Shown: positions 13,106-62,747, counted from the stretch's first letter. The stretch: 64,000 nucleotides of DNA from Gammaproteobacteria bacterium (GCA_965214795.1 OZ243976.1:4673783-4737782), one strand, 5' to 3'. The notes: generated by a model not told the origin, from the sequence alone. Translations and numbers: made by a program.

Positions 13106-13117
13106 GTCGGGAAGCAA

Positions 13118-17030: not shown

Positions 17031-17190
17031 ATCCCCGGTCACAGCGCGCCATCGCGCGGCCACAGCGCCGCGCCGGACCCTGGTCACGGCGTAACGCCAT
17101 CCCCCGGTCACAGCGCCGTGCCATTCCCCGGTCGTGGCGCCGCACCGCTCCCCGATCACGGCGCCTCGCCGACCCCCGGTCACGGCGCTT
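17031..17190. repeat. Seven tandem units of ~24 bp (core GGTCACGGCGC)
   Basis: Core starts at 17037, 17058, 17082, 17106, 17130, 17154 and 17178. The spacings are 21, then 24 five times. The last unit contains the pccA stop codon (17180-17182). Confidence 0.8.
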
Positions 17191-28483: not shown

Positions 28484-28669
28484 GTTAACACTCAAGTTTC
28501 GGGATTCATCGGCGGAAATGGATTCCCGCTTGCGCGGGAATGACGGCCGTGGCGACGAGGGCGGTTGCCGCGGAGGCGGCGTGTCTTGCGAACAATGACG
28601 TCATTCCCGCGCAAGCGGGAATCCATCGCCCGATTCCAGGCATTTTAAACCCCGAAACTTGAGGTTAAC
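28484..28669. repeat. 186-bp long-armed palindromic (MITE/REP-like) element in the nrdJ leader
   Basis: Ends GTTAACACTCAAGTTTCGGG... and ...CCCGAAACTTGAGGTTAAC. The inner arms GGATTCCCGCTTGCGCGGGAATGACG and CGTCATTCCCGCGCAAGCGGGAATCC each contain an ATTCCC-N8-GGGAAT hairpin. Confidence 0.7.
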
Positions 28670-28698
28670 AGTCCTTTTCGCCCCTGCCGGAGGCAACC

Positions 28699-31983: not shown

Positions 31984-32100
31984 GGGGGGAAGCTGTGAGG
32001 CGAGGCCAAGGGCCAAGGTTCAGGGCTGGAGTATCGATGCGGGCGCCCCCATGCAGGGAACGGTGGGGAACGAAGAGCAAGAGTCGAAGGCGGAGCGGGA

Positions 32101-34451: not shown

Positions 34452-34618
34452 CGATGCCGCCCGGGGCGGCGGCCCGCTCGCTCCGTGGGGATCACAAGCG
34501 CTCCGGCAACACCGGACCTGGTCATGACCAAGTACTCACCTTCCATGCGAGCGCGAACGAATCCATCGCTCTCGAACACCTTGGCAAGATCCTGCCAACG
34601 CCGGGGGCTAACCGCCAT
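34307..34618 (-). pseudogene. HicA-like toxin remnant (weak)
   Basis: The N-terminal 45 aa MAVSPRRWQDLAKVFESDGFVRARMEGEYLVMTRSGVAGALVIPT fit the HicA/YcfA pattern, with GEY where GSH is expected. The ORF then reads through into the convergent sulfatase 3-prime end, which suggests decay. Confidence 0.3.
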
Positions 34619-34976
34619 ATTTCACCGATTCACGGCCGCGAGGGAGACCGGTGTCGCATTCCTCATTCCGGGATTCCCGCTCGGGAAATATCGAGTCCGC
34701 GCGGTAGCGGTCGGGCGCAATTCTTACCGATCGGGACAATTCCGCTGTTGGCACAGGACTTTCCCACGCTAATTCCGTTTGCAATATGACGGGGATTGGA
34801 TGATTGGCGTTGTCCGCGCGTTGCGGATGGTATTGGAGGAAGTTGCGCTGGCTTTCCCGCGCTGAAAGACCGCGGCATGGGGGAAGCGAGCCCGAAGCAC
34901 CGTGCGCGCCGCCGCTCCCGCCGCATGGAGCGTGGGCCGGGAAATCTCATACGCCTCGCTCAGGGCCGTCTTCGAG

Positions 34977-35120
34977 CAGCAATTCTCATTTTGCTCGTCG
35001 GGTCCCGCCGCAGGGCCGGCACGACCGTCGATCCGCCCCCCGATCCACCCCGGATCGAGTCGCCAGGAGAAGACGGCTTGCGGATCAGGGTGAAGTCAGG
35101 CGCCAAAATGAGAACTGCTG
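34977..35120 (+). mobile_element. MITE-A copy 3 (144 bp)
   Basis: Same sequence family as copies 1 and 2. Flanked by the 9-bp duplication GTCTTCGAG (34968-34976 and 35121-35129). Confidence 0.85.
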
Positions 35121-35374
35121 GTCTTCGAGGCGCGGGCGTGTTGTCCTGCCGCCGCCGTGGCACACTGGACCTTCCGGGAAGTCGTCAGGTCGGTGCGCTG
35201 GAGTACGGTCATCTGGCTTGCTCCTGTGGATGCCGGGTTTGGGCACCTCGAATCATCGCAAAGGATGCACGAGCTCGAGCCTTCTACGAGCGTTTCGGGT
35301 TCGTCCGTCTGCCGGACACGGAACGGCGCTTGTTCTTTCCCGTGGCGTCTGCCGAACGGCTGATCGGAGACTGA
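35121..35374 (+). pseudogene. C-terminal remnant of a GNAT acetyltransferase (TacT-like toxin type)
   Basis: Only the last ~35 codons look authentic: IIAKDARARAFYERFGFVRLPDTERRLFFPVASAERLIGD. The upstream frames are broken and MITE-A copy 3 abuts the remnant. Confidence 0.4.
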
Positions 35375-35445
35375 TCCCGTACGGGGATTCAAGTGCGGAG
35401 AAAGGCTTCAGTCGACGCATGCGTCTCCCCGGATCGGTGCCGATA

Positions 35446-37044
35446 TCATTGCGACTCTCGTACCCCGGCCCGAGGATTTCGGTTACCAGACTGATCGTCT
35501 ACGGCAACGAACAGGCCGAGGCCGAAATGTGACGAATGGCCGAGTGAAATGGGGCCGCGAACGGGTGTGTCGAACGCGAGCATGGCGTGATAGCCGCGCC
35601 TCTCCGTGTTCGTGGGGTCGTCTCGATTCCGTCGAGGTCTGTGCACACGTATCCAGTCGGCGGTTTGATCATCCACGCCGATCGTCAGACCGGCCGTATC
35701 GTATCCCTGCCGAGCCAGTTCGAGGCGAAGTTGCTCTTCGAGTGATTCCCCCGCCTTTATCCGGCCTTTACGGTTGCACATATGGCGTGGCGGAACATAG
35801 GGTGTCGCGGTCTCCCAGCGTGTGTATGCCTGCCCGCAGAAGCCGACCGGAGGCGGTACCTGAGAATCCAAGGGCACGAGCCGTACGGTCCAGGGATCCC
35901 TTGCTCCCGCCTTGACGAAGGAAAGCGGAAGTTCTCGTCCGGCCGCGTTCAGGATGGCGCGTTGTTCGTCGTCATCGAACGGTCGGTCGCGCCAGACAAG
36001 CAATCTTGTCGCCTTGCCCGTCTCGCGGTCGAAGAGAACCCCGAATCGGGCGTGTGGATGTCGGTGGTCTTGCAACGGTGTCCCGTCGGCCTCCTTGCCA
36101 GTGAGAAGACGCGCCGCTTCCCGCTGTGCCGTATTGGCCCGTTGCCAGCTTCCTCCGAGAAACTCCCGGATCACCCGTCCCCGGAAACGTCGAGTGAGCA
36201 CGACGATGTTTTTTCTCGGCGGGTCGACTCGCGCACCGATCATGAACTGGACGACGCATATCGGTGCTTTCGTCTGAGGCGTCGAACGCGGCAACTTCGC
36301 CGGCGGTCTGACGGGGCGCTTGGCGTGCAGCCAACGCGCCCCGGCCGGCACGGTCGAGTTCGCGACCGACGGATCATCCGTGGCCGCCTGAACCTGCTCC
36401 AAGGCGGCGTCCGCCGTCGGCACCAGCACCGGGACCGAACCCGATGAGGGTGTTTGCTTCAGGACGCAGTTGACGTCTACGTTTTCTGGCAGGTCATCAA
36501 CCCGTTGGATTTCCGTAATCGCTTCGGCGCGTCCGAAATAGGTCATCCGTTCCAAGCTGGCATCGAACCGGTCAAGCAGATCCCCCGACCACCGTTCACC
36601 GTCCACGACCCACCAGATAATGCCGGAATCCGTGTCAGCTTTCGAGCCGCCGACTACCCAGAAGTTATCGCGTACCAGCGTCGGCCTGTACCTTTTCTCG
36701 CCTGGGATACTCACACGCCGACCTTTTACCTTCTTCGTTCGGCTGGGCGGATCCCACTCAAACTTTGCTGGTTGGTATTGCCGCAATCCCGGGCCTCGCC
36801 AACTGAACGGCGGCAGGCACCAACCGAATGTGCTCGTGCAGAATGCCCCAACCAACGATTCGCGCCATGCTTGACACTCCACGCCGCGTTCCCGCTCCAA
36901 CTGATGGGACCGCGCCAGAATCGCACGAAGCAACCGCCAAGGACTCGGCGGCCACTCCCCGTGAGGGTCTTCGAACGGGAACGCGCGCCATGGATTGGCG
37001 TGGAAACGCCCCAGCGGAAATGTCTGTTGGAGGACGACACGCAT
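35446..37044 (-). CDS. csb2: Type I-G (I-U) Csb2 (Cas5u-Cas6u fusion, GSU0054 family)
   Basis: 532 aa. N-terminus FPLGRFHANPWRAFPFEDPHGEWPPSPWRLLRAILA. C-terminus GPISLGHSSHFGLGLFV. Confidence 0.85.
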   Translation of the reverse strand: MRVVLQQTFPLGRFHANPWRAFPFEDPHGEWPPSPWRLLRAILARSHQLERERGVECQAWRESLVGAFCTSTFGWCLPPFSWRGPGLRQYQPAKFEWDPPSRTKKVKGRRVSIPGEKRYRPTLVRDNFWVVGGSKADTDSGIIWWVVDGERWSGDLLDRFDASLERMTYFGRAEAITEIQRVDDLPENVDVNCVLKQTPSSGSVPVLVPTADAALEQVQAATDDPSVANSTVPAGARWLHAKRPVRPPAKLPRSTPQTKAPICVVQFMIGARVDPPRKNIVVLTRRFRGRVIREFLGGSWQRANTAQREAARLLTGKEADGTPLQDHRHPHARFGVLFDRETGKATRLLVWRDRPFDDDEQRAILNAAGRELPLSFVKAGARDPWTVRLVPLDSQVPPPVGFCGQAYTRWETATPYVPPRHMCNRKGRIKAGESLEEQLRLELARQGYDTAGLTIGVDDQTADWIRVHRPRRNRDDPTNTERRGYHAMLAFDTPVRGPISLGHSSHFGLGLFVAVDDQSGNRNPRAGVRESQ

Positions 37045-37056
37045 CGAAGCGACTCG

Positions 37057-38148
37057 TCAGTCTTCGGTGTCTTGCTCGTCGTCCGAATCGGTGTCTTCCT
37101 CACTCTCATCGGCGCCGGCACGAAACAGTTCTTCAGCCGGCCAGTAGACCTGCGTCACAGGCGAATCGCCGAACCCCGCGTTTTTGATGGCCGACTCGAT
37201 GTCGATGGTTGGCGGATAAACGGGTTCTTCGCGGCCGCGAATGCATAGCTCGTGAAGTTCGAGGTCGCATCCGCTTCGATAGCGGAACGGTCCTTGCAAG
37301 AGGCGCTCGATCTTCCACAGGGCGAGAGCCAGAAGGAATTCCTTCCGCGCGTCGTTCAGACCGCGATCTCCCCGACCGAATGACCGCAGCAACGCCAAGT
37401 CGATGACGAACGTCGCGACGATTTCGCTGGCGGTTTCCTCGTCGACGGAAAAGATAGGCTGCCCGGAAGACGTCTTTCCGAGCTTGTCGAATTTCACACC
37501 GGAACTGCGGACTCTGGATGCGTCGAACGCCTCGAGGTGCGCTGTCAACATCCTCGGCAACTTGATCCCCATGGCGGGAAAGAGCACCCCGTGGACGAGC
37601 GAGTTGGGATCGTAGCAAAAGATCGTGTTGAAGACAGTCCACCACTGCTCGGGGAGCGGATGTGATTTCTTGCCGAGGTCAGTGATTCCGAATTCTTCGC
37701 GGAGCACGTCGCCGAACGTCCGGTCGCCCGCTTCCCCGAGCCTTCCGTCGAGAAAGTAGGTCGAGGCCAACCGGTGCCCTTCAGAGAACGTCGTGACGAC
37801 GAGCCGGTTCGGCCCTCTCCCTTCTTCGGTAACATCCGGCCAGCCGTCATCAGTCCGACACTCGACGTAGGGCATACCCGCGAGTTCATGCGCCAAGTCC
37901 AAGGAATATCCGCTCGCCAAGCACACTGTCTCCAAGTGATTCGCCATGCTCGCCGCGCTGTCTACGATACAGACCTTCTGTGCACGGGTATCGGATCGCG
38001 GGGCGTCGTAAATGACATGCCCGATCTCGGGAAAACCCGCTGGTTGAAACCGGTCCAGGCCGGAAGCCGGCTTGAGGCTCGCGTGAAGCGTGAGACGAAG
38101 TTCCGAGCCATTCAGTAGCCTGGAGGGGTCGAGCGGATGGTCGGCCAT
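37057..38148 (-). CDS. csb1: Type I-G (I-U) Cas7u/Csb1 (GSU0053 family)
   Basis: ORF 37057..38193. The preferred ATG 38148-38146 follows GGAGAG. LKPASGLDRFQPAGFPEIGHVIYD...NSLVHGVLF. Unusual acidic tail ADESEEDTDSDDEQDTED. Confidence 0.85.
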   Translation of the reverse strand: MADHPLDPSRLLNGSELRLTLHASLKPASGLDRFQPAGFPEIGHVIYDAPRSDTRAQKVCIVDSAASMANHLETVCLASGYSLDLAHELAGMPYVECRTDDGWPDVTEEGRGPNRLVVTTFSEGHRLASTYFLDGRLGEAGDRTFGDVLREEFGITDLGKKSHPLPEQWWTVFNTIFCYDPNSLVHGVLFPAMGIKLPRMLTAHLEAFDASRVRSSGVKFDKLGKTSSGQPIFSVDEETASEIVATFVIDLALLRSFGRGDRGLNDARKEFLLALALWKIERLLQGPFRYRSGCDLELHELCIRGREEPVYPPTIDIESAIKNAGFGDSPVTQVYWPAEELFRAGADESEEDTDSDDEQDTED

Positions 38149-38159
38149 GGATGTCTCTC

Positions 38160-40280
38160 CTATTGTTCTGCGGGTTCGGTCGGCGTTCGCCAACGCCGGA
38201 AAACGGCAAGAGCCTGTCCGTCACGGGCCGGGATGGCCAGCGCCGCCAAAAGGCGGCTCGGATCGAGCCCGGAAGGGATCGCATTGAAATCGGCGAGGGT
38301 CACGCCGGCGGAACGGTATGCCGTCAGCGCCAATTCAACTGCGGCGCTCACGTCGCCATAGCGCAACATCGCGACGACCCGGCCAAGATGCGCGCAGGTC
38401 GCTGCGCTCTCGGTTTGAACGTCGCTCTCGCGGAGGATGCGACCGAACAGCCAGCGACTCGCGAGCGGGCGGAACAGCGCGTAGAGCGCCAGCATACCGT
38501 CAACCACGGGTGGAAGGCGGGTGAAGCTGCCCTGCATTTTCCTTGCCGCCTCTCGGTTTGCCTCGCCACTCCAGTCGAACAGGCAAAGGCGGTCGAGCCA
38601 GAGACATAATCGCTCTTCGTCCACATCTCCGGACAACCAGGCATGCACGTCATCGAGGTCCACGCGGACCGCGGCGTCAAACGGCGGCGGTGAGTTTGCT
38701 TCCCGAGACGCCTCCCAAACGCGCCGTTCCGCCGTCGCACACAGGTTCGCGGTCAACTCGGTATCGCTCCAGATACGGCGGGCGGGATGAGCCTCGGGGA
38801 ACTCGCAGCGTGCCCCCGTCCGCTCTCCCCGAACCCGAACGCCGATGCGGTACGCGATGAATTGTGGCGAGGTAGACGCTCCCACTAGAGAAGACATCGC
38901 CAGCGCCAAGCGAGCCTCCCGATCAGGTGGGTTATCTCGAAACAAATTGACTGCCCATTCACCCGGCAACAATCGAAATCGAACGTTCTGGCCTCGAAAC
39001 GTCCGATTTCGATCGACCTTGACAAGCGTATCGAACATTTCATCGACCAGCGCCCAAGCTTGTTCGGTGCGTCCTTCGCCCGGCTCCGAGGCCGCGAAGT
39101 CGACGAGTGCCTGTTCGAGCGGGCCGCGCAGACCGGAAAACTTCCATCGCTGGCGCACTTTTCGATCCGGTGGCAGCGCATCGCGAAGCTCCACAATCGT
39201 CCGAATCGCTCTTGTGGTTGCATTGTCCGGGTTCGTCTTCGGAACCGGGACCACGGTCGCCAACCGGGATTCGAATGTCTGCGCGCTTGTCGTATGCATA
39301 AGCAGGAAACGTCGAAACTCCGCCATACCCGCATCGACCCCGCGGCCCATGATTCCGACAGCGAACGCCGCCGAGGAAATCGCTCCCCTCGCTCCGAGCT
39401 CTGCCCTTCCGCGCAGGAACAACGACCTCAGCTCGGGCTCGGTCATCGGCTGATCCCAAATCGGGAGCCAGATCTCCGCCTCGATGTTGCCAGCTTCTTT
39501 CTCGGCTTTGGGAGGCATCGCCTCGGTAACGAACGGGAAGGCGCCCTTGGGCTGCCGACGGCTGCCGAGCTGCCGAGACGAACCGCCCGCGAAGTAAGGC
39601 AAGCCCTCACACGCCAGCACCATAGCCCAGGGTGTTACTTCGCCCTCACGATATGGTTGTTTCTTGCCACGCGGCGAACGTGGTGGTGCGCTTGGGTTGC
39701 CGTGATTGTAAATCTTGTTGGCTGCACCGAACCATGATCCTGCCTGGAAGGAATCCAGATACGTACAGGCTCCGCCCGAAAGAAATGCCTTGAGGTCGTT
39801 GTTGAGCACGTCACGGCTCTGGTTCCGTGGCTCCTTGATTACTTGGACAGCGTCCTTCCAGCCCTTGACGAAGTCCCGTTTCCCCGCGTTCCCTCCAGTG
39901 CCCAACAGAGGATTCATCCTGATCCGGCCGTCAAGCGCCAGATGCGCACCAAAGGCAGACAGTGATCGTTCCTCTGCTTCCAGGGCACGCCAACGCGCCG
40001 TCTGTGTCGACGTCTTCTTGGCGGCATCTGCCTTCTTGTTCTTGTCCCATGGTCTGTCGTATAAGCTCCATTTGCTTTCTTTGCCGATCTCGCTCACGAA
40101 CGAAACGACCTCTGCCATCGTGGCGGGGCCGCCGACAAGGCAGAAGCGGGCGTTGCGCCAACACGCTCGGACGCGAGGCCATTGCCGGGTAGCAAGCGAG
40201 AACAACCCAAGAGAAGCGAGATAAGCGCCGAGCGAATCCGCGTTCAGTCCGTTGAGCGGCACGACGGGAAGAGTGCTCAC
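38160..40280 (-). CDS. csx17: Type I-G (I-U) large subunit Csx17 (Cas8u2)
   Basis: ORF 38160..40436. The likely GTG start at 40280-40278 overlaps the cas3 stop (GTGA). VSTLPVVPLNGLNADSLGAYLASLGLFSL... The size (706 aa) and N-terminal pattern fit Csx17. Confidence 0.8.
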   Translation of the reverse strand: MSTLPVVPLNGLNADSLGAYLASLGLFSLATRQWPRVRACWRNARFCLVGGPATMAEVVSFVSEIGKESKWSLYDRPWDKNKKADAAKKTSTQTARWRALEAEERSLSAFGAHLALDGRIRMNPLLGTGGNAGKRDFVKGWKDAVQVIKEPRNQSRDVLNNDLKAFLSGGACTYLDSFQAGSWFGAANKIYNHGNPSAPPRSPRGKKQPYREGEVTPWAMVLACEGLPYFAGGSSRQLGSRRQPKGAFPFVTEAMPPKAEKEAGNIEAEIWLPIWDQPMTEPELRSLFLRGRAELGARGAISSAAFAVGIMGRGVDAGMAEFRRFLLMHTTSAQTFESRLATVVPVPKTNPDNATTRAIRTIVELRDALPPDRKVRQRWKFSGLRGPLEQALVDFAASEPGEGRTEQAWALVDEMFDTLVKVDRNRTFRGQNVRFRLLPGEWAVNLFRDNPPDREARLALAMSSLVGASTSPQFIAYRIGVRVRGERTGARCEFPEAHPARRIWSDTELTANLCATAERRVWEASREANSPPPFDAAVRVDLDDVHAWLSGDVDEERLCLWLDRLCLFDWSGEANREAARKMQGSFTRLPPVVDGMLALYALFRPLASRWLFGRILRESDVQTESAATCAHLGRVVAMLRYGDVSAAVELALTAYRSAGVTLADFNAIPSGLDPSRLLAALAIPARDGQALAVFRRWRTPTEPAEQ

Positions 40281-41791
40281 GAGTCTATTTCCCTCTTCGC
40301 GCTGGGTGCCTTGCTGGCCCGTTCGTCGGCCGAGCGCACCAGCGTTTCGAGGTAAGCCAGCGTGAACGGTCCGAGATTGCGCGGCTCGCCGTCCGGGACC
40401 GCGCCGCCGACACCCGGTTCCGCATCGGGCTCCCACGCACCGAGCAGGTCGGCGACCAGCCCGGTCCAGCCGGGCGCCTCAAAGATGAACTCCTGCCCAT
40501 CTTCCGAGAAGCGGCCCGACGCGCCATCGACCGCGCACGCGAAGTCCAGTGGCATTTCGTTCCACGGCAGCGATGCCGCGATCTTCGGTACGCCGCACAC
40601 ATCCTCGCCAGAGTCGGTCCGGGACGTGAGCACCGTCCGTACCTTGCCGTGGTGCGCGGCGGAGAGATAGATCGACAGGGCGGCAAAGCCGTTGTTCGCC
40701 CCTCGATAGTAGCTGTGCCACAGCGCCAATGCCGTCGCCGCCTCATGGCGAAGACCGGGACGGAAAGGGACATTCCACGCGCGCACGACACCCGGCACCG
40801 TGCGGATGCGTTCGAGGGTCGCGCGAGACACCTTCGAGTCCGTGTGCCAAGTGAACCGGGTGGGGGCGGTCGCGACCTCCCGTCCCGACGGCTCGGCTTG
40901 GCGATGCCGCACGCCGGTCGTTCGAAGAATGGTCTCGGTCTCCTGTGCTGCCGTGGGGCACTCCGCGATGGCCGCGAACTGATACGGTGCCTTCGCCCAT
41001 ATGTCCGACTGCGGCGGCGGCTTGGGTAGCTTGCTTTGCCACTGCGCGAGCGCCTTGCCGATGTCGTGTTCCGATGATGCGTGGACGACCGCCGAACCAA
41101 TATCGTTGTCGAGGTTCAGCGCCCGGACAATGCCCTTCGCCTCGCGCTCGGTGTCTCTCAGATGATCCGTCAACGTGACCCATATTCCACTCTCACTGTA
41201 TCGGTCATCCTCGAACTTCTCGTACGGTTCGCCCGGTGGCCGCACATTGTCCAGCTTGTCGCTCTTGCTCCCCGTCCAACCCAGCTCGCGGGAGTATCCC
41301 CCGTCGTTGCGCCGCAGCATCACCGACATGCCGGGCCGGACGTCTCGAGCGCGAACTGCCGTCCATGCCTCGCGCTTGTCGTCCCAAATCCATGCGTTCC
41401 TCTTTTCCAGGAAGTCCCGTAGTCTGCCGACGGCCACGGCGCATCCTTCGCCATGAGCAAACGCCGGCCCGGTCAATCCCTCCGTACGTCGCAACTCGGC
41501 ATCGGAATGCCACTCGCGCCAGAAGACCGTCACGTCCGCGTTCTCGTCCTGACTTCGGACGAACGGGCTCACGTCGGTGAAGCCCCCGAAGACATCCGGC
41601 TCGGTCGAAAAGAGTCCATGCACGTCGATGGCCCTCGGACATGGTTCCGGCTCGGGAGCCAGCGCCCTCTCGACCAAGGCCTTGATTTCCTCCCGTGCGC
41701 TCAATCTCGCCAGGGCGTTCTTCGCGGGCAGCGTGTCATCGGACTCGCACACCGCGATCAACTCGTTGACGAGCTTGCGCCCATACTTCAC
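40277..41791 (-). CDS. cas3: Cas3 C-terminal half only (linker plus HD nuclease); helicase half absent
   Basis: 504 aa. HD-domain motifs HASSEHDIGKA, RPGLRHEAATALAL, LSAAHHGKVR. No Walker A/B or DEAD/DExH motif is present here or in the next 8 kb. The frame stays open for 32 codons above the GTG at 41791, to a TAA at 41890-41888. Confidence 0.75.
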   Translation of the reverse strand: MKYGRKLVNELIAVCESDDTLPAKNALARLSAREEIKALVERALAPEPEPCPRAIDVHGLFSTEPDVFGGFTDVSPFVRSQDENADVTVFWREWHSDAELRRTEGLTGPAFAHGEGCAVAVGRLRDFLEKRNAWIWDDKREAWTAVRARDVRPGMSVMLRRNDGGYSRELGWTGSKSDKLDNVRPPGEPYEKFEDDRYSESGIWVTLTDHLRDTEREAKGIVRALNLDNDIGSAVVHASSEHDIGKALAQWQSKLPKPPPQSDIWAKAPYQFAAIAECPTAAQETETILRTTGVRHRQAEPSGREVATAPTRFTWHTDSKVSRATLERIRTVPGVVRAWNVPFRPGLRHEAATALALWHSYYRGANNGFAALSIYLSAAHHGKVRTVLTSRTDSGEDVCGVPKIAASLPWNEMPLDFACAVDGASGRFSEDGQEFIFEAPGWTGLVADLLGAWEPDAEPGVGGAVPDGEPRNLGPFTLAYLETLVRSADERASKAPSAKREIDS

Positions 41792-42483
41792 CGCCTCGGC
41801 TTCATAGGGACCGATGAACCGTGCGTTCCGCTTCGGCTTCTCCGGTCCTTCATCACTTCGCTTGAAGGGCGAACCCGTTGTACGGCCTTACGGCCGTTAG
41901 TTGGTCACACCATACGCAGCGTGCTGCCTGTCGTGCCGTGTCTGCGACCCGGTGCGCTCCCTTGCCGAACGGCTGCCATGTAGCGTCACCCCGGCCATGG
42001 AAAAGGCGCCGCCGTTTTGGGACCCCGCCGTATGCCGGCCGTATATCTGTCCACTTCGGGCCGTGATTTCAATGGGTTGAAGCGCAGCCGGTCGCGTCGG
42101 TTCGGCCAATCCCACGGGAATCACCGGATAGGCTCTTTCCTACAGGCATCCCGGTCGTTCGCGTGCTTCCGCTGATCGGTGGCGCCTTTTCCACGATAGC
42201 CCCGGCGTCCCAAGGACGCGCTCCGAACACCCAAGCGCGGCCATACCTGCGCCCGTTGTTGAACGCCGCCGCGTGCGCGTCGGCGTGCGCGGGGATGCGG
42301 AGCATACGATGAGCATACGCGCCAGATTCCCTCGCATCCCGCCGTATGCCGTGAGCATACACAGCGACGGGCACGCGCACGGGCATGATCGCGCCGGGCC
42401 GGAAGGCGCGGCGGCGGGATGGCGTGCAGGGAGGTTTTCGTGTCCCCGCGGGCCGTGTCGATGGCCGGAAGGAGGGCGGGGAG

Positions 42484-43735
42484 CTACAGGCCGAGGTCGA
42501 TCTCGACGGACTTCTGTTTCGGTTCTGCGGCCTTTTCGTACTCGGATCCGCGGACGGGACCGCCGATCCGGCTCGGATCCTCGCCGGGTTCGCGATCCTT
42601 GTCGCCCGATTCCGCGCCCGTTCGTTTGCGTTCGGCGCTCCGCTCCCGCGATATCCGGTCGCGTTCCTGGCCGGTTTCACGGTCGATTCGATACCCGCGC
42701 TGGTGCTCGCGATGGGTCTGACGATCCGGTTCGATGCCGCGATCCATCGTGTCCAACACGCGTGCCACGCGATCACCGCCGCGCTCCTGCGGCTTCTCGA
42801 CTCCGAAGACCGCCTCGTGCGCGGCCTGTCTCGCGGTCGCGTCGAGCGCCGCGACCCGCTCGCCCGTCGCCCGTTCCAACTGGTCGGCGAGCTTCCAGGC
42901 ATCGTCGGTGAGCAGATCGGCCCGGTCGCGCGCACGGCTGATGGCCACATAGAACGCCTGTTGATTGGTCAACCGGGCATTGCCGGTGGGCATCGCGGCG
43001 ATGATGCGGTCCACCGTCCGGCCCTGGAAGGCATGGACGGTGGCCACGAAGGCGCGGTCGATGTGCCGGAGTTGGGGATCGCCGTTGCTGAGTTTCATCA
43101 GAGAACCGTCCTCGAGACGGAAGCGGACGCCGGCCTTCTCGGTGGAATTGACCGTCGCGGTCTCGCCGTTGGCAAGGCCCGTGGCGGGATCGTTGCGCGT
43201 CCAGCGCACCCGATCGCCGGCGCGGAGTTCCATTCCCTCGGACCTGTAGACCTCGACGCCGCCCTTGGCACCCGCGATCAGGTACGGCTTCCACAAGGTC
43301 TCGCTGCCCCGCTCGTCCTTGAGGACGACTGAATGCCCGTTGTGTTCGAGCCGCGCGACCGTCCGTTCGTCGCCCTTCCCGACCCCGAGCGTCTTGTATT
43401 GCCGGGTGAAGATCACCGTGTCGCCGGCCGCGTAGTTCGACGCGCGGGCCATCTGCGCCCGGGTCAGGTCGCGGGGGACCAGTTTCTCGCCCCGGCGCGC
43501 CGGTCCGGCGACAGGTTCAGCCAGAGGAGCGCGGTCTCGACACCGAGATCGTTCCGCTCCACCTGCGTCACCCGCTCGCCGAGCCTGGCAAATGCGGTCT
43601 TCACGTCGCCTGCGAGACCGGCGCGTACCGCCTCCTTCAGCGCCGCGTCGCGCTGGCGATGGTCCGCTCCGCACCCTGGCCCGCGCGCATCAGCGCGATG
43701 GTCTCGGACTCGCGCGCGATTGAGTCGGAGAAGGC
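42484..43735 (-). pseudogene. Conjugative relaxase (TraI/TraA-type) helicase-domain remnant A, internally deleted and frameshifted
   Basis: ORF 42484..43674 carries the C-terminal part ...VEVYRSEGMELRAGDRVRWTRNDPATGLANGE...VHAFQGRTVDRIIAAM...AFYVAISRARDRA. An upstream piece in another frame (FSDSIARESETIALMRAGQ) parallels [16 protein letters not shown] of remnant B. The P-loop segment between the two pieces is missing. Confidence 0.7.
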
Positions 43736-44809
43736 GGGCGCAAGGCGCCCAACAAGCGGGTCGTCGTCGGACGCTACGGTCGCGTCACCCCCGATCAGGC
43801 ACAGCGCCGCGCACAGGAACTGCTCGGCCGCGTCGCCGGCGGCGACGATCCCGCAGGCAAGCGCGCCGACGCTCGCGCCCTGCCCACATTGGGAGAGGCC
43901 TGCGACGACTACATCGAGACCGGCCGCCGCCTGGCCGACATGACGCAGCGTTCCTATCGCCGTTATTCCAACCTCTATCTCGGCGACTGGCGATCGCGTC
44001 CGCTCGATGCGATCACCCGGCGCGATGTCGAGGCCCGCTTCCAGCTCATCACCGAGCGCCACGGCCCGGTCCCGGCCAATCAGTGCCTGTCCTTCCTGCG
44101 CTCGGTCTACCGCCGGCCCTGCGTGGATCAAGAAGGTCTGCGCAATCCGGTCAAACTGTGGCGGGCGGGCGGCGGGCGCTACCACGCCAAGAGAAGGAAG
44201 CGGATTTCCTCGCTGGCCGAGGTTCTGCCGAAATGGCGCGCAGGGATCGAGGCGGTGGTGCGCAACCCGGTGCACCGGGACGTGTTTCTGTTCGGCCTCT
44301 ACACCGGCATGCGCCGGGGCGAGATATTTACCCTGCGCTGGGAGCGGGTGGACATGGAGGCGGGGCTGTTCCGGGTCGAGGAGACCAAGACGGGGGTGCC
44401 GCTGGAGCTGCCGGTCACGCGTCAGCTCGGGGAGATCCTCGCGCGTCGCCGGGCCGGCGGCGAGGTCATGTACGCGGACTTGCGGGACTGGGTGTTTCCG
44501 TCGCTCACCAGCAAGTCGGGCCATGTCGAGGAGCCTCGCGCGCATTACGCCGGCATCACGAAGGTCGGCGGCGCGAAGTTCTGGTTCCATGCGCTGCGCA
44601 ACGCGTTTATCACGGTGGCGGAGCGCGAGCTCATGCTGCCGCGCTCGCTGATCAAGCGGCTCGTCGACCATGCCCGGCCGCAGGACGTGACCGAGGGCTA
44701 CGCCGCCGACTGGACCGTCGAGCAGTTGCGCGAGCCGGCGCAGCGAGTGGCCGACCGGATCGACGCACTGATGAACACCAATACGCGCCCGGAAAGGGCC
44801 GCAGCGTAG
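43724..44809 (+). pseudogene. Tyrosine recombinase (P4/DUF4102-type integrase) lacking its first ~30-40 codons
   Basis: The open frame starts right after TGA 43721-43723: ...KRVVVGRYGRVTPDQAQRRAQELLGRVAGGDDPAGKR...LGDWRSRPLDAIT. Catalytic region FGLYTGMRRGEIFTLRW, FHALRNAF, GY. The first in-frame start codon is TTG at 43889. Confidence 0.8.
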
Positions 44810-44896
44810 AGCGCGCCGACTTCGCCCGGTTTGGAGGGCCGTCGCCGCGCGACAGGCGCTTACGGCCGGCACTGTCGATGCGGTATCGTGGCGCAC

Positions 44897-45934
44897 ATGC
44901 CCGATCTCCACGACTCCTCGTTCAAGCTGTGGTTCGATCACGTCGAGATGGTCCGCGATCTGTTGCGCGGCTTCGTGCCCGAGGACGTGGTCGAGGCGTT
45001 CGACTTCGACACCCTGGAACAGCTCCCCGCCGAGTACATCGGCGACGACCTGCGCCAGAGCCGTGGCGACATGGTCTGGCGCGTGCGCTTCCGTGGCGAG
45101 GCGGCGGGAGAATGGCTCTATCTCTTGGTGCTGCTGGAGTTCCAGTCCACGGTGGACCGGCACATGGCGGCGCGGGTGCTCGCCTATACCGCGCAGACCT
45201 TCATCAAGCTGATCCGCAACGAGGCGTTGCCGGCGGACGGCAGGCTGCCGCCGGTGCTGCCGGTGGTCATCTACAACGGGCGCACGCGCTGGTCGGCGCC
45301 GGAAGAGATGGGCGAGGCGATCGCGACAGTGGGCGACGGGCTGGCGCCGTTCCAGCCGCGGCAACGCTACCTGCTGCTTGACCAGCACGCGATGAGAGTG
45401 GACGATCTGCCTCCCGGCAACGTGGTTTCGGCGCAGATCGAACTGGAACAGGGTTCGGTGTCGGCGATGGCGTCGGTGTTGCGGAAGCTGGGCGAGCTTC
45501 TGAACGAGCCGCGGCACGGCAGTCTGCGGCAGGCGTTCGCGGAGTGGGCGCGGCGGGTGGTGGAGGGGAGCCGTCTGGCGGCGTCGCAGCCGGAGTTGGT
45601 GGAAACGTTGAGGGCGTTGGAGGAAACGGGGGATTTGAAGGCCATGGGATCGCTGTTGGCTGAACGGATCGACGAGTTCGCCGATGAGCGCCTTGCCAAG
45701 GGTCTGGCCGAGGGTCTGGCGCGGGGCAAAGCAGAGGGCCTCGATCAGGAACGGGCGTTGTTGTCGCGCCTGACGGCACGGAAGTTCGATGCGGCGACGG
45801 CGGCGCGTCTGGCGGCGTTGCTGGAGGGCGTGGAGGACCCCGAACGTCTGGCCGAGGTCGGCGAGCAGGTGATCGACTGCGCCACCGCGGCCGAGTTGCT
45901 GGCCCGCGTGGAGCGTGCCGCCGGGCGGGATTGA
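44897..45934 (+). CDS. Rpn-family recombination-promoting nuclease / putative transposase (PDDEXK_2, YhgA-like)
   Basis: MPDLHDSSFKLWFDHVEMVRDLLRGF...GDMVWRVRF...WLYLLVLLEFQSTVDRHMAARVLAY...PVLPVVIYNG. Confidence 0.85.
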   Translation: MPDLHDSSFKLWFDHVEMVRDLLRGFVPEDVVEAFDFDTLEQLPAEYIGDDLRQSRGDMVWRVRFRGEAAGEWLYLLVLLEFQSTVDRHMAARVLAYTAQTFIKLIRNEALPADGRLPPVLPVVIYNGRTRWSAPEEMGEAIATVGDGLAPFQPRQRYLLLDQHAMRVDDLPPGNVVSAQIELEQGSVSAMASVLRKLGELLNEPRHGSLRQAFAEWARRVVEGSRLAASQPELVETLRALEETGDLKAMGSLLAERIDEFADERLAKGLAEGLARGKAEGLDQERALLSRLTARKFDAATAARLAALLEGVEDPERLAEVGEQVIDCATAAELLARVERAAGRD

Positions 45935-46106: not shown

Positions 46107-47254
46107 GTGTCATGTCCCTTAAATACGCGCAGATGGACGTTCCAGCCTGTCGAAGATCGACTCCGCCGTCGCGGCCCAGATGAAGGGGGAGGCGGAGGCA
46201 TTGTACTGTGCGATGAAGGCCTCGATCGTGTGGACGAGCTGGGCCACGCTGTGGAACGAGCCGCGCTGGATGGCCCGCTGGCTGATGAGGCCAAACCAGC
46301 GTTCCACCTGGTTGAGCCATGAGGCGGAAGTGGGGGTGAAGTGAAGATGGTAGCGCGGTCTTTTGGCGAGCCAAGCGCACACCTTGGGATGCTTGTGGGT
46401 CGCATAGTTGTCCACCACGAGATGAAGGTCGAGCTCCGGTGGAGTCTCCTTGTCAATGAGCCGCAGGAAGGCGAGAAACTCCTGATGGCGATGACGCTTG
46501 CAGCATTTGCCGAGCACCTTGCCGGTGGCCACATCCAGGGCGGCGAACAGCGTCGTGGTCCCATGACGGATGGAATCATGGGTATAGCCTTCGACGTAGC
46601 CCAGTCCCATCGGCAGCGTGGGCTGCGTACGATTGAGCGCCTGTATCTGGCTCTTCTCATCGACGCACAACACCATCGCGTTGTCCGGCGGATTGAGGTA
46701 AAGACCGGTGATATCACGAACCTTCTCGATGAAAAAGGGGTCGCTGGACAGCTTGCAGGTGTCGCTCAGATGCGGCTTGACCCCGAACAGGGAAAACCAG
46801 CGTTGCACGGTGCTCTTCGACACGCCCTCGGCCTGCGCCATCAGGCGCACGCTCCAAGCGCTGGCGTTGTCGGGCTTGTCCTGCAAGGCGCGGTTGATCA
46901 GCTCCGCGACCTTCTCGTCCCCATAGGTGCGAGGCCGTCCTGGGCGCAGCTCATCATGCAGTCCCGGAACGCCCCGCTCGAGGAACCGGCGTCGCCATTT
47001 GCCGACCGCCGAGAGCGAGACATCAAGGCGTTGAGCGACACCGGTATTGGTCAGGCCCTGCCCACAGGCGAGGATGATGCGGGCGCGCTGGACCAACCCG
47101 TAGGGCATTGAGGTGGACTGGGAGAGGGCGAGCAATTGTTCGCGTTGGTCGTCGGTGAGAATCAGCGGGGGAAGTTGGCGTCCGCGCGGCATGGGGGCCT
47201 CCGGGGGCTGGATGAGGCCGATATCATATTCCGCGTATTTGAGGGACGAAACAC
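46107..47254 (-). mobile_element. IS630-family insertion sequence (1148 bp)
   Basis: Imperfect terminal inverted repeats GTGTCATGTCCCTTAAATACGCG (left) and GTGTTTCGTCCCTCAAATACGCG (reverse complement of the right end). Flanked by the TA dinucleotide on both sides (46105-46106 and 47255-47256), as expected for IS630/Tc1. Confidence 0.85.
46119..47192 (-). CDS. IS630-family DDE transposase
   Basis: The internal start [20 protein letters not shown] is ATG 47192-47190. HTH regions, then [13 protein letters not shown]...[13 protein letters not shown]...WLNQVERWF. Confidence 0.88.
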
Positions 47255-49226
47255 TAGTGGCCGCCGCGCTCGCCTGGCGGCCGGGCGCGGTCGCCATTGA
47301 AGCGGCGGAGAAAGCGGTGGACGACCTCCAGAAAGCCGGCGCGCTCCATGCGGCGCCCGCGCATGAGGCCGGCGACGGGATGACGACGGACAAGGCGCTC
47401 GCGGACGAGCGCGAAACCATCGGGTTGATGCGCGACGGTCAGAGGCGCGGGCGGCCGGTGATGCGAAGCTGGATGGTGAGCGCGCGCCTGCACAGGGGAC
47501 CGCTTACCCACGGGCAGCGGGAAGCGGTCAAGCTCATCCTCGGCGCGAAGGACCGGGTGGTGGGCGTCCAGGGTTACGCCGGCACCGGCAAGACCCGCAT
47601 GCTGAGGCGCGTCCGGGCGCTCGCGGGAAAGAGCGGCTACCGCATGATGGGGCTTGCGCCGTCGGCTTCGGCGGCCAGGACCCTCGGCGCCGAGGCCGGC
47701 ATCGACGGCGAGACGCTGCAGCTCTTCCTTGCACGCAACGCCGGCGTCGCCGAGGGCCGGCTCTCGAAGAAGGGCGAGCGCGATATGCGCTCCGCGTTCA
47801 AGAAGACTGTGCTGGTGGTCGACGAAGGGTCGCTCGCTTCCACCGCCCAGGCCCGCAACCTGCTGCGGATCGCGACCGTGCTGCGCATCCCCCGCGTGGT
47901 GCTGGTCGGCGACTCGAAGCAGCTCGACGCGGTGGATGCCGGCAAGCCGTTCGCGCAATTGCAGCAGGCGGGCATGAAGATCGCCGTCATGGACGAGATC
48001 ATGCGTCAGCGCGATCTGGAGCTTAAGGCCGCAGTCGAGGCGAGCCTCGCGGGCGAGATCGGCAAGGCGTTCGAAAAGCTCGGGGCGAACGTCGCCGAGG
48101 TGAAGGCCGACAACATCGCGGGCGCCGTCGCCGCGCGGTGGCTCGCGCTCTCCCCGGCGGAGCGCGACCGCACCGGGGTGAAGGCGCCGAGCCACGAGCT
48201 GCGCGACGGGATCAACGGCCACGCCCGCGAGCGTCTCGCCCGCGAGGGCCGCATCCATGGACCGGTCCTGCAAGGCGAGCGGCTGGTCTCCCGTGGCTAC
48301 ACCAACGCGGAGAAGGCGCTCGCCGGAAACTATGCGGTGGGCGACGTCGTGGCTTTCCACCGTCCCTGCAAGCGGATCGGGGTCGAGAAGGGCGACGAGC
48401 GCCGCGTGGCCGGGGTCGACCACAGGTACCGCGAGGTCCTGCTCGACGGCGGCGAAGACGGCACCGTGCGCTGGAAGCCCGGCGAGCTCGCCGGACGCAG
48501 GGGCGGCAGCGAGGTCTACCGGGCCGAGGCGATCGAGCTCCGCGCCGGCGACCGCGTCCGCTGGACCCGCAACGACACGGCGCTCGGCTTGGTCAACAGC
48601 CACACCGCGGAGGTGGTGGCGGTGACGGGCGGCAAGGTGTCCTTCCGGCTCGAGGACGGGCGCGCGCTGAGCCCGAACGAAGGCGATCCGCAGCTGCGCC
48701 ATCTCGACCATGCCTGGGCCTCGACCGTGCATGCGTTCCAGGGCCGCACCGTCGACAACGTTATCGCCGCCATGGAGGCGAACCATCCGCACCTGACCAC
48801 CTCACCGCGCATTTCAAGCAGCACGCGGATGGCTCCTACAGCGTCATCGGCTAAACGCGGCACAGGTGGGAACCGTTGCCTCCGCGACGCTAACACGACC
48901 GGCAGGCAAACACCCGCAGAGCCGTGTCGACTATAACACGGACCCACGCCAAGCGCTTACACCGGACATGTAAGGGTTCGATCGAGCCGCGAAAGCCCGG
49001 CTCGGTCGGCTTTCGCCGCGAAGCGCCTGCACGCGTCGGCCGGTCTCGTCGACACGGCGGAGAACGTTCTTGTTCCGGCGCGCGGGGACTTCTGTCTCCA
49101 CGGCACAACCGAATCCCTACCCGGACGCCCCGGATCCCGGACACGCGTTTGCGTTCGCCCGGGTTTGATTCCCATCGTTTGCCAATAGTTTGCCAGAGCG
49201 GCGGGATCGGTATCCCACGAAACGAG

Positions 49227-61857: not shown

Positions 61858-61901
61858 GACACCTAGCTAACAACGGCTGCCGCTAATGGCCCGAATTCCT
61901 G

Positions 61902-62744: not shown

Positions 62745-62747
62745 GGT

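What the first reader, a model, noticed from the sequence alone, without database searches (positions are those of the whole stretch)
35446..41791. Orphan type I-G (I-U) CRISPR-Cas interference module with no adaptation genes and no array
csx17, csb1 (cas7u) and csb2 (cas5u/6u) are full-length, uninterrupted and tightly packed. There is a GTGA overlap at 40277-40280, and gaps of 11 and 12 nt between genes. The canonical continuation (cas4-cas1 fusion, cas2, CRISPR array) is missing. Only 72 nt downstream of csb2 lie a GNAT pseudogene and a MITE. I could find no direct-repeat array anywhere in the 64 kb.

The module sits next to relaxase and integrase debris, so it probably travelled on a conjugative element. 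Two readings are possible. It may be a decaying locus. It may instead be a minimal effector that uses crRNAs encoded elsewhere, which would be analogous to type IV systems and transposon-associated type I systems. The intactness of three large ORFs argues against simple decay.
Basis: partly seen in the sequence, partly recalled or inferred. Interest (0 to 1): 0.7.

Follow-up and report, generated by a model that had tools for sequence, protein, structure and literature searches.

The report
Decaying array-less type I-G cas operon
This is a real type I-G CRISPR interference operon, but its Cas3 motor has just been cut in half by a rearrangement. A nearly identical sister genome has lost the other half of the operon instead, so this is a defence island caught mid-decay rather than a new minimal system.

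Summary
The span holds four minus-strand ORFs, not three.

- **Intact genes:** cas8g/csx17 (38160-40280), cas7g/csb1 (37057-38148) and csb2 (35446-37044). All three are confirmed by HMM and are full length.
- **Truncated gene:** the fourth ORF (40277-41791) is the 3' remnant of cas3g. It keeps the HD nuclease region but has lost the whole helicase core. The break lies exactly at 41851|41852.
- **Missing parts:** no cas4/cas1, cas2, CRISPR array or single I-G-like repeat exists in the 64 kb.

A sister genome is 99.1-99.9% identical in the three blocks the two loci share. At the same chromosomal site it carries full-length cas3g, but its cas8g is cut at codon ~177 and cas7g and csb2 are gone. 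The island is therefore being dismantled by large deletions. The intact ORFs reflect how recent the damage is, not selection.

In this I-G lineage, 15 of 19 close relatives also have no adaptation genes or array nearby. One of them has cas4g/cas1g, cas2 and a ~95-repeat array 1.2 Mb away on the same chromosome. Missing neighbours are therefore normal for the lineage. Verdict: an ordinary, damaged member of a known system, with modest comparative interest.

The parts
40277..41851 (-). cas3g 3' remnant. It corresponds to the last 524 codons of an ~894-940-aa Cas3g. The longest ORF starts at GTG 41791 and gives 504 aa. The HD nuclease region is kept and the whole SF2 helicase core is missing.
   Evidence: TIGR02621 matches only profile positions 422-854 (198 bits, cutoff 400). 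tblastn with full-length relatives matches their residues ~413-945 only. All helicase invariants are absent and all C-terminal invariants, including the HD motif, are present. The exact junction with the sister genome lies at 41851|41852. The 524 shared residues are identical to the sister Cas3g.
38160..40280 (-). cas8g / csx17 (large subunit), 706 aa, intact. Its GTG start overlaps the cas3 stop codon (GTGA).
   Evidence: TIGR04113, 330.7 bits, cutoff 150. It aligns end to end with 705-aa relatives. P0001 is 100% identical and lies on a 5,409,393-bp contig.
37057..38148 (-). cas7g / csb1 (backbone subunit), 363 aa, intact
   Evidence: TIGR02570, 45 bits (cutoff 38); PF09617, 90.8 bits. It is 72-82% identical to 16 relatives in several phyla.
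35446..37044 (-). csb2 (Cas5-Cas6 fusion, the pre-crRNA endonuclease), 532 aa, intact
   Evidence: TIGR02165, 105.8 bits, cutoff 45. The C-terminal GHSSHFGLG motif and all 61 family-invariant residues are kept. The catalytic role of a C-terminal histidine comes from PMC9638904.
35240..35374 (+). C-terminal ~45 codons of a TacT-type GNAT toxin gene (remnant)
   Evidence: The translation reads ...AKDARARAFYERFGFVRLPDTERRLFFPV...*. Pfam Acetyltransf_7 matches only at E 0.03, profile positions 60-83 of 84. The sister genome keeps the N-terminal ~50 codons of tacT plus tacA1.
34632..35239 (.). Window-specific filler that is absent from the sister genome. It contains a 20-nt inverted-repeat pair (34974-34993 / 35104-35123).
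   Evidence: Block boundaries come and the junction at 34631|34632. The inverted repeat is I10. MITE status was not established.
41852..42483 (.). Window-specific 632 nt of unknown origin that abuts the cas3 break. It carries two exact copies of GGCATACGGCGGG.
   Evidence: The segment has no counterpart in the sister genome. The motif lies at 42024-42036 and 42338-42350, with 0.2 matches expected by chance. No protein family hit was found.
42484..43689 (-). C-terminal fragment of a MobF/TraA-type relaxase-helicase (pseudogene)
   Evidence: NCBIfam TraI/TraA hits cover only C-terminal parts of the profiles and fall far below the cutoffs. There is weak DNA similarity to mobF of Cereibacter plasmids. 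A paralogue lies at 47104-48936 (I1/I2).
43724..44809 (+). Tyrosine integrase with an incomplete N-terminus. The part from 43989 onward is shared with the sister genome.
   Evidence: PF00589 at 3.5e-13, plus a partial Arm-DNA-bind_3 domain. The junction lies at 43989|43988.
44810..45934 (+). Rpn/YhgA-like gene (Transposase_31)
   Evidence: PF04754 at 2e-25; RpnA at 2e-11. Homologues lie next to the module in L048 (both flanks) and in L009.
46119..47438 (-). IS630-family transposase
   Evidence: NF033545, 253 bits, cutoff 100.

Best explanation
The locus is the interference half of a type I-G CRISPR-Cas system (cas3g-cas8g-cas7g-csb2). It sits on a small chromosomal island with lower G+C (62% against 68-71% in the flanks), next to sulfatase and nrdJ genes.

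In this I-G lineage the interference operon is usually not adjacent to cas4g/cas1g-cas2 and the array. The missing neighbours are therefore the ancestral, normal state for the lineage (inferred). In intact relatives the system would work in the canonical way described for T. sulfidiphilus (known from the literature):
- Csb2 cuts pre-crRNA from an array located elsewhere.
- Cas7g, Cas8g and Csb2 form Cascade.
- Cas3g docks on Cas8g, nicks the target with its HD domain and degrades it using its helicase.

In this genome a recent rearrangement replaced the 5' half of cas3g with mobile-element debris. The lost part includes Walker A, DExQ and motif VI. The replacement is 632 nt of unknown sequence plus a relaxase fragment. 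Processive interference is therefore abolished (shown: the truncation; inferred: the loss of function).

cas8g, cas7g and csb2 are still intact only because the event is very recent. The island is in the process of being lost.
For: **Identity of the genes:**

**Truncation of cas3g**
- It matches only profile positions 422-854 and relatives' residues ~413-945.
- The DEAD domain (residues 48-216) and the Cas3-like_C_2 domain (294-403) of full-length L008 Cas3g lie entirely in the missing part.
- No helicase invariant is present.

**Sister genome (GCA_964347695.1, L054)**
- It shares three blocks at 99.1-99.9% identity, separated by sharp junctions.
- It has full-length cas3g, but cas8g is cut at codon ~177 and cas7g and csb2 are missing.
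- The same variant appears on a contig from a second ENA analysis record (L056).
- The shared 2104 nt differ at 3 positions, and there are no amino-acid differences over 524 Cas3 residues.

**No sign of long-term relaxed constraint.** Unique changes at otherwise invariant sites number 6 of 201, 4 of 185, 3 of 168 and 5 of 178 for the four proteins. This is within the range of the relatives.

**No repeat, array or cas1 in 64 kb:**

**Lineage context**
- 15 of 19 close relatives have no adaptation genes or array in the sequence held. That sequence covers about 7-8.4 kb downstream of csb2 and 5-7 kb upstream of cas3.
- In several of them housekeeping genes follow directly.
- 10 of the 12 array-less loci from the species-representative genome set have all four genes in a single frame and full length.
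- dN/dS is 0.11-0.30 between array-less pairs.
- In the L010 genome, cas4g/cas1g, cas2 and a ~95-repeat array lie 1.2 Mb from the interference operon.
- Elsewhere the two halves are separated by 4-11 kb of cargo genes.

**Known requirement for the helicase:** Walker A and Walker B mutants of I-G Cas3 bind and nick DNA but do not degrade it (PMC9638904).
Against: - I could not scan the rest of the 5.41-Mb source chromosome. A remote array, an adaptation module or a second cas3 cannot be excluded. Matching contig lengths among Cas4/Cas1g hits found none, but those hit lists were cut at 120 of at least 8000.
- The remnant retains every conserved residue of the HD region and has a possible GTG start, so a residual activity is not excluded.
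- The source and the sister are metagenome-style assemblies. Structural variants could in principle be assembly chimeras. Against this, the sister variant recurs on contigs under a second ENA analysis record.
- The claim that the split state is normal for the lineage rests on one verified long-distance example.
Confidence: 0.75

Rival explanations
1. The locus is still a working minimal effector. Cas8g-Cas7g-Csb2 load crRNAs made from an I-G array elsewhere in the genome. They then act without a helicase, either as a DNA binder/repressor or, together with the HD-bearing Cas3 remnant, as a guided nickase.
For: - Three full-length genes keep all family-invariant residues.
- The remnant keeps the HD motif and every C-terminal invariant residue.
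- Helicase-dead I-G Cas3 still binds and nicks targets in vitro (PMC9638904).
- Split systems with remote arrays exist in the lineage.
Against: - The truncation is only a few mutations old, so intactness says nothing about selection.
- The sister lineage discarded cas8g, cas7g and csb2. This argues that the Cascade genes are dispensable in this population.
- The remnant has no native start codon or ribosome-binding site. Its GTG is an internal codon in relatives.
- No promoter-like site was found.
- No array is known in this genome.
Confidence: 0.12
2. The interference-only cassette arrived as cargo of an integrative or conjugative element. It was never linked to an array in this host and served the element, for example in competition between mobile elements, by using host arrays. 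This concerns origin and is compatible with the best explanation.
For: - G+C of the cas block is 62.3%, against 68-71% in the flanks.
- In the window and sister together, the block is bracketed by two tyrosine integrases, tacAT, a PIN-like gene, an Rpn-like gene and a relaxase fragment.
- Cas proteins about 80% identical occur in different phyla, with dS as low as 0.2-0.35.
- In L048 the module lies between two direct copies of an Rpn-like gene.
Against: - Cas7g has no relative in 72,556 plasmid records or in IMG/VR contigs.
- Most relatives sit between housekeeping genes or in defence islands, without conjugation genes.
- The relaxase fragment abuts the break in cas3. It may therefore be what disrupted the operon rather than what carried it.
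- No att sites or tRNA were found.
Confidence: 0.35
3. The truncation is an assembly artefact. The contig is chimeric at 41851|41852, and the real genome has an intact four-gene operon.
For: - The source and the sister appear to be metagenome-derived assemblies.
- The two structural variants share 2.1 kb at 99.86% identity, which could mislead an assembler.
Against: - The source contig is 5.41 Mb and is held by both NCBI and ENA.
- All four junctions are sharp, with unrelated sequence beyond them.
- The alternative variant was assembled on contigs under two ENA analysis records and never continues into cas7g or csb2.
- A simple chimera would not also explain the differing tacT and integrase junctions.
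Confidence: 0.05

Closest known systems
Type I-G (formerly I-U) CRISPR-Cas, as characterised in Thioalkalivibrio sulfidiphilus (Shangguan et al. 2022, PMC9638904) and defined by NCBIfam/TIGRFAM models for GSU0051-GSU0054 and Csx17
   Same: - The gene order cas3g-cas8g-cas7g-csb2 is the same.
- All three Cascade proteins pass their family cutoffs.
- The Csb2 C-terminal Cas6-like motif is conserved.
- Relatives use 36-nt repeats with an 8-bp hairpin that end in ATTGAAGC, the 8-nt 5' handle.
- In T. sulfidiphilus five unrelated genes also separate csb2 from cas4-cas1.
   Different: - Here cas3g lacks its helicase half.
- No cas4g/cas1g, cas2 or array lies within 64 kb.
- In this sub-lineage the interference operon is usually uncoupled from the adaptation genes and array, in one case by 1.2 Mb.
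Systems without adaptation genes, some also without arrays, that are thought to use crRNAs made elsewhere: subtype III-G (no array found) and, by my own recollection, type IV (Makarova et al. 2025, PMC12669027, for III-G)
   Same: There is no adaptation module and no array at the locus. At least one relative has its array at a distant locus.
   Different: - In those systems the loss is a fixed trait of the subtype, and the effectors are specialised.
- Here the proteins are canonical I-G. 4 of 19 relatives have adjacent adaptation genes and arrays.
- Array-bearing and array-less loci are interleaved in the tree.
Transposon-associated type I-F3 / I-B / V-K systems (CASTs)
   Same: Both are minimal effector operons that lack adaptation genes and sit near mobile-element genes.
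   Different: - CASTs lack cas3 as a lineage trait, are linked to tnsABC-tniQ and carry their own short arrays (my own knowledge).
- Here relatives and the sister genome have full-length cas3g.
- No Tns or TniQ genes were found among the annotated neighbours.
- No array or lone repeat is present.
Partial or degraded CRISPR-cas loci in general
   Same: There is a truncated core gene, mobile-element debris at the break, and alternative deletion variants among near-identical genomes.
   Different: Nothing essential differs. The only unusual point is that the two complementary deletion variants were both captured, so the ancestral four-gene operon can be reconstructed.

Membership tests
Type I-G CRISPR-Cas | Cas8g/Csx17 large subunit | tested here: met
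   TIGR04113, 330.7 bits, cutoff 150. The protein is 706 aa and aligns end to end with relatives.
Type I-G CRISPR-Cas | Cas7g/Csb1 backbone protein | tested here: met
   TIGR02570, 45 bits (cutoff 38); PF09617, 90.8 bits (cutoff 25).
Type I-G CRISPR-Cas | Csb2, a Cas5-Cas6 fusion with a C-terminal RNA-cleaving domain | tested here: met
   TIGR02165, 105.8 bits, cutoff 45. The C-terminal GHSSHFGLG motif and all 61 invariant residues are kept. Catalysis itself was not tested.
Type I-G CRISPR-Cas | Cas3g: an SF2 helicase followed by a C-terminal HD nuclease in one protein | tested here: not met
   Only the C-terminal 524 codons remain. TIGR02621 scores 198 bits against a cutoff of 400, covering profile positions 422-854. 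Walker A, DExQ and motif VI are absent. The sister genome has the full gene.
Type I-G CRISPR-Cas | Cas4-Cas1 fusion (cas4g/cas1g) and cas2 | tested here: not met
   tblastn of two Cas4g/Cas1g proteins against the window found only a weak PD-(D/E)XK match in a UvrD-type helicase-nuclease at 2974-6156. The rest of the genome was not searchable.
Type I-G CRISPR-Cas | CRISPR array of ~36-nt hairpin repeats ending in ATTGAAGC | tested here: not met
   None was found in 64 kb by TRF, the repeat finder, a periodicity scan, motif searches, Rfam and covariance model R1 with filters off. The best hit scores 14 bits and lies inside a coding ORF.
Type I-G CRISPR-Cas | crRNA-guided DNA interference | not testable with these tools
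   This needs RNA-seq or small-RNA data and plasmid or phage challenge assays.
Derived 'guide-borrowing' or transposon-associated minimal class 1 systems (type IV, III-G, CAST I-F3/I-B) | Loss of the adaptation module and own array as a fixed lineage trait | tested here: inconclusive
   15 of 19 close relatives lack them nearby. Four have them adjacent and are interleaved with the others in the tree. One array-less locus has them 1.2 Mb away.
Derived 'guide-borrowing' or transposon-associated minimal class 1 systems (type IV, III-G, CAST I-F3/I-B) | Absence or inactivation of Cas3 as a lineage trait, with partner genes such as tnsABC-tniQ, DinG or CysH | tested here: not met
   Relatives have full-length cas3g with all motifs. 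The sister genome, 99.86% identical over the shared cas block, has a full cas3g. No such partner genes appear among the annotated neighbours.
CreTA-type RNA addiction modules that safeguard Cascade genes | A crRNA-like antitoxin with a degenerate repeat inside or beside the cas operon | tested here: not met
   The gaps between genes are -4, 11 and 12 nt. No repeat-like element was found in the window or in 15 array-less relatives by covariance model or motif-plus-hairpin scans.

The most novel reading that the evidence does not exclude
The four-gene I-G interference cassette is a horizontally mobile unit in its own right. It moves between phyla without adaptation genes or an array. It becomes functional by plugging into an I-G array and adaptation module that already sits elsewhere in the recipient genome, so immunity memory and effector are inherited separately. 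The window would then hold a recently disabled copy. A more extreme version is that the helicase-less remnant plus Cascade still acts as a guided binder or nickase.
Probability: 0.25. Interest if true: 0.55.

Novelty: new member of a known kind. Interest (0 to 1): 0.3.

Why it matters
For this window the practical message is corrective. What looked like a compact, intact, possibly novel minimal CRISPR effector is a canonical type I-G interference operon that has just lost its Cas3 helicase. Two near-identical genomes carry complementary deletions of the same island. This gives a clean natural snapshot of how CRISPR-Cas loci are lost: by large rearrangements linked to mobile elements, not by slow point-mutation decay.

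The comparative by-product is of some wider interest. In one environmental I-G lineage the effector operon and the adaptation-plus-array unit are usually physically uncoupled. The effector operon shows low synonymous divergence across phyla. If a census of complete genomes confirmed this, it would bear on two questions: how modular CRISPR-Cas inheritance is, and how often locus-based annotation tools misclassify split systems as orphan or non-functional.

Tried and rejected
- **Exact-sequence look-ups.** Csb2 and P0001 gave nothing from the look-up of encoding contigs. The source genome is not indexed there.
- **PDB sequence searches.** Csb2 and the Cas3 remnant gave no hit. I therefore could not place the catalytic His503 of T. 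sulfidiphilus Csb2 by alignment and relied on motif conservation.
- **Plasmid and viral searches.** Megablast of the locus and tblastn of Cas7g against plasmids found no match. IMG/VR had no relative. This gives no database support for plasmid or phage carriage.
- **Breakpoint at 41887.** tblastn suggested this position. I rejected it because nucleotide comparison with the sister genome places the break at 41851|41852. The extra 12 codons were a spurious extension.
- **Weak repeat-like hits.** One lies at 63959-63994 (E 0.27) and one at 47260-47303. I rejected both. The first lies in frame inside a Type ISP restriction-enzyme ORF that runs off the window. The second lies in the overlap between the TraA-like helicase ORF and the IS630 transposase ORF.
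- **Conserved flanks or terminal repeats shared by array-less relatives.** No general pattern was found. Only locus-specific features appeared (L010 inverted repeats, L048 Rpn-like direct repeats).
- **Finding a cas4g/cas1g on the source chromosome by matching contig lengths.** This was inconclusive because the hit lists are cut at 120 of at least 8000.
- **Promoter scan.** No sigma-70-like site was found in 34400-42600. This is uninformative for a high-G+C organism.
- **MITE status.** I could not establish whether the inverted repeat at 34974-35123 is a MITE.


Full report
**1. What is in the sequence**

Between 35446 and 41791 the minus strand carries four tightly packed ORFs, not three.
- a GTGA stop/start overlap at 40277-40280;
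- an 11-nt gap at 38149-38159;
- a 12-nt gap at 37045-37056.

NCBIfam and Pfam identify three of the ORFs:

| ORF | Gene | Evidence |
|---|---|---|
| 38160-40280 | cas8g/csx17 | TIGR04113, 330.7 bits, cutoff 150 |
| 37057-38148 | cas7g/csb1 | TIGR02570, 45 bits, cutoff 38; PF09617, 90.8 bits |
| 35446-37044 | csb2 (Cas5-Cas6 fusion) | TIGR02165, 105.8 bits, cutoff 45 |

The fourth ORF (40277-41791, 504 aa) is not named in the finding. It matches the type I-G Cas3g model only over profile positions 422-854, at 198 bits against a cutoff of 400. It also has a weak HD-domain hit.

**2. cas3g is truncated**

- Full-length Cas3g proteins from relatives (about 940 aa) align to the window only from their residue ~413 onward. 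No other fragment exists in the 64 kb.
- In a full-length relative, the DEAD domain (residues 48-216) and the helicase C domain (294-403) lie entirely in the missing part.
- I aligned 23 relatives. Every invariant helicase residue is absent from the window protein: Walker A PTGxGKT, the DExQ box and motif VI QRxGR. Every invariant residue of the C-terminal ~520 aa is present, including the HD dyad and the downstream histidines.
- Published work on the T. sulfidiphilus system shows that Walker A/B mutants of I-G Cas3 still bind and nick targets but no longer degrade them (PMC9638904). A protein with no helicase core at all cannot support canonical interference. This last step is inference.

**3. 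No array, no repeat, no adaptation genes in the window**

- Tandem Repeats Finder, the direct-repeat finder and a custom periodicity scan found nothing CRISPR-like.
- Arrays from 21 related loci share a 36-nt repeat with an 8-bp hairpin and the 3' end GGCCYCRTTGAAGC.
- Motif searches for that 3' end, a hairpin-plus-handle scan, Rfam, and a covariance model of the 21 repeats run with filters off all failed to find even a single credible repeat.
- The best model hit scores 14 bits (E 0.27) and lies in frame inside a restriction-enzyme ORF.
- tblastn with two Cas4g/Cas1g proteins found nothing relevant.

**4. The sister genome settles the 'decay' question**

The 504-aa remnant falls in a 90%-identity cluster with two 894-aa full-length Cas3g proteins. 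One of these lies on contig CAYGAF010000002.1 of assembly GCA_964347695.1. That contig also carries near-identical copies of the window's sulfatase and propionyl-CoA carboxylase genes.

Nucleotide comparison of that locus (L054) with the window gives three collinear blocks:

| L054 | Window | Content | Identity |
|---|---|---|---|
| 878-2997 | 46107-43989 | Rpn-like gene and integrase | 99.1% |
| 4990-7093 | 41851-39748 | 3' half of cas3g plus the first ~177 codons of cas8g | 99.86% |
| 10639-16564 | 34631-28720 | HicA-like remnant, sulfatase, nrdJ | 99.2% |

- The junctions are sharp, with unrelated sequence beyond them.
- The sister has a complete cas3g with Walker A, DEVQ and motif VI. Its cas8g stops at codon ~177, and cas7g and csb2 are absent. 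In their place are the first ~50 codons of a tacT GNAT toxin gene, tacA1, a tyrosine integrase and two ORFs.
- The window shows the converse. The cas3g 5' half and two small upstream genes are replaced by 632 nt of unknown sequence, a relaxase C-terminal fragment and the N-terminal part of an integrase. cas8g, cas7g, csb2 and the last ~45 codons of tacT remain.
- The same cas3-only variant occurs on a contig from a second ENA analysis record (L056).
- The 2104 shared nucleotides differ at three positions, and the 524 shared Cas3 residues are identical.

Two essentially conspecific genomes therefore carry different large deletions or replacements of one ancestral island. That island held an intact cas3g-cas8g-cas7g-csb2 operon followed directly by tacT-tacA and an integrase. 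The three intact ORFs in the window reflect the youth of the lesion.

This fits the other measures. The window proteins show no excess of changes at otherwise invariant positions: 6 of 201, 4 of 185, 3 of 168 and 5 of 178, all within the spread of the relatives. Their dN/dS against relatives is 0.09-0.26, like that between intact pairs. Nearly all of that divergence predates the truncation, so it carries no information about present selection.

**5. The wider lineage**

A scan of species-representative genomes with Cas7g returned 46 loci. The 16 closest (72-82% identity) come from Acidobacteriota, Gammaproteobacteria, Alphaproteobacteria, Rhodothermales, Binatia, Latescibacterota and Dehalococcoidia. 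I added three ENA contigs chosen only for Cas8g similarity and contig length.

- Of these 19 loci, four have cas4g/cas1g, cas2 and an array within 0.3-4 kb of csb2.
- The other 15 have none in the sequence held, which covers about 7-8.4 kb downstream of csb2 and 5-7 kb upstream of cas3. They also contain no single repeat.
- In several of the 15, the next genes are ordinary housekeeping genes such as ddl, livM-like, an efflux outer-membrane subunit and ABC transporters.
- Ten of the 12 array-less loci from the species-representative genome set have all four genes full length in a single frame.
- Loci with and without arrays are interleaved in a concatenated tree.
- Array-less pairs give dN/dS of 0.11-0.30 at dS of 0.2-0.45. 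This includes a pair from Pseudomonadales and Binatia at dS ≈ 0.32, which indicates fairly recent transfer between phyla.

I then matched contig lengths between Cas8g hits and Cas4/Cas1g hits. One array-less genome (L010, a 3.65-Mb chromosome) has an isolated cas4g/cas1g-cas2 followed by a ~7-kb array of about 95 identical I-G repeats. This unit is flanked by housekeeping genes and lies 1.2 Mb from the interference operon. In other relatives the two halves are separated by 3.9, 4.8 and 10.7 kb of unrelated cargo. Because of the 10.7-kb case, a few of my 15 array-less loci may simply have their partner just beyond the sequence I hold.

The sensible reading is that in this lineage the interference operon and the adaptation-plus-array unit are loosely linked or fully split. 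The absence of neighbours in the window is therefore neither evidence of decay nor evidence of an exotic mechanism.

**6. Mechanism**

For intact relatives I infer the canonical I-G pathway established biochemically:
- Csb2 cleaves pre-crRNA four nucleotides after the hairpin and stays on the 3' hairpin.
- About seven Cas7g subunits, Cas8g and Csb2 form Cascade.
- Cas3g binds through Cas8g, nicks the displaced strand with its HD domain and degrades DNA with its helicase.
- The crRNAs are supplied from a distant array.

For the window, the helicase step is physically impossible with the gene present. Whether the remnant is made at all is doubtful. Its GTG is an internal codon in relatives, it lacks a well-spaced ribosome-binding site, and no promoter-like site was detected.

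**7. Origin**

- The cas block has 62.3% G+C, against 68-71% in the flanking core genes.
- Taken together, the window and the sister show the block bracketed by integrases, tacAT, a PIN-like gene, an Rpn/YhgA-like gene, an IS630 transposase and relaxase fragments. Arrival on an integrative element is therefore plausible.
- Direct support is lacking. There are no plasmid or viral relatives, no tRNA or att site, and most relatives have no conjugation genes nearby.
- The relaxase fragment touches the cas3 break, so it may mark the disrupting event rather than the vehicle.

**8. Comparison, novelty and verdict**

The proteins are canonical type I-G. The locus fails the membership features that concern full-length Cas3g, Cas4-Cas1, cas2 and the array. 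It fails them through loss or separation, not through divergence. It is not analogous to type IV or transposon-associated systems, because relatives and the sister keep full cas3g and no transposition partners are present.

I rate it a new, damaged member of a known kind, with interest 0.3. The most novel reading still open is that the interference cassette is an independently mobile unit that relies on arrays already present in the recipient genome. I put that at about 0.25.

Noticed in passing
L010 (OZ220484.1, 2.599-2.620 Mb) and L050 (same chromosome, 1.385-1.407 Mb): This is a split type I-G system. The interference operon and an isolated cas4g/cas1g-cas2 with a ~95-repeat array (repeat ATTTTCCCCCGCTTTTTGCGGGGGCCTCATTGAAGC) lie 1.2 Mb apart. 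Both are embedded among housekeeping genes.
   Followed up: partly
L048:5413-6443 and 14838-15844; L048:16735-22118: The four-gene I-G module is bracketed by two direct, near-identical copies of an Rpn/YhgA-like (Transposase_31) gene 9.4 kb apart. Rpn-like genes also lie near the module in the window (44810-45934) and in L009. Downstream in L048 is a second, different cluster with a Cas_GSU0054-family gene and an 1135-aa Cas3 with an HD domain.
   Followed up: partly
L010:4997-5101 and 12652-12756 (third copy at 3055-3161): 105-nt inverted repeats (89% complementary) directly abut both ends of the four-gene module. This resembles a MITE-flanked composite. Other loci do not show it.
   Followed up: no
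L007:10109-11950; L051:8429-9976; L052:8321-9868: A gene with AAA-ATPase_like and PDDEXK_9 domains sits immediately upstream of cas4g/cas1g in three loci of this lineage. It may be an accessory gene of the adaptation module.
   Followed up: no
L006 versus L009, cas7g/csb2 boundary: dS is about 0.40-0.44 for cas3, cas8 and cas7 but 1.0 for csb2. This suggests a recombination breakpoint, with the repeat-recognising csb2 travelling with the adaptation-plus-array unit in L009.
   Followed up: no
window 42024-42036 and 42338-42350 (minus strand): Two exact copies of GGCATACGGCGGG lie in the 632-nt window-specific segment between the relaxase fragment and the cas3 break, with 0.2 matches expected by chance. 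They could be remnants of an oriT or a protein-binding site.
   Followed up: no
window 28669-31983 (+): The class II ribonucleotide reductase gene nrdJ is interrupted by an intein. The sister annotation lists Intein_splicing and LAGLIDADG_3 domains. A separate TSCPD-domain ORF follows at 31999-32805.
   Followed up: no
window 17045-17188: Six copies of a 24-nt tandem repeat (CGCGCCATCCCCCGGTCACGGCGC-like, about 70% matches) lie between the MeaB and propionyl-CoA carboxylase alpha genes.
   Followed up: no
window 1532-6746 and 57547-64000: Both ends of the window carry other defence-like genes. At the left end are a Schlafen/AlbA_2-HATPase_c_4-Fic_C protein, a UvrD-helicase-PD-(D/E)XK nuclease and RadC. 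At the right end are a 1439-aa P-loop protein with no confident family, a TIR-domain protein, and a Type ISP restriction-enzyme C-terminal domain ORF that runs off the window.
   Followed up: no
window 34466-34618 (-): This is a short HicA-toxin-like remnant (Pfam E 0.004) at the boundary of the block shared with the sister genome.
   Followed up: no
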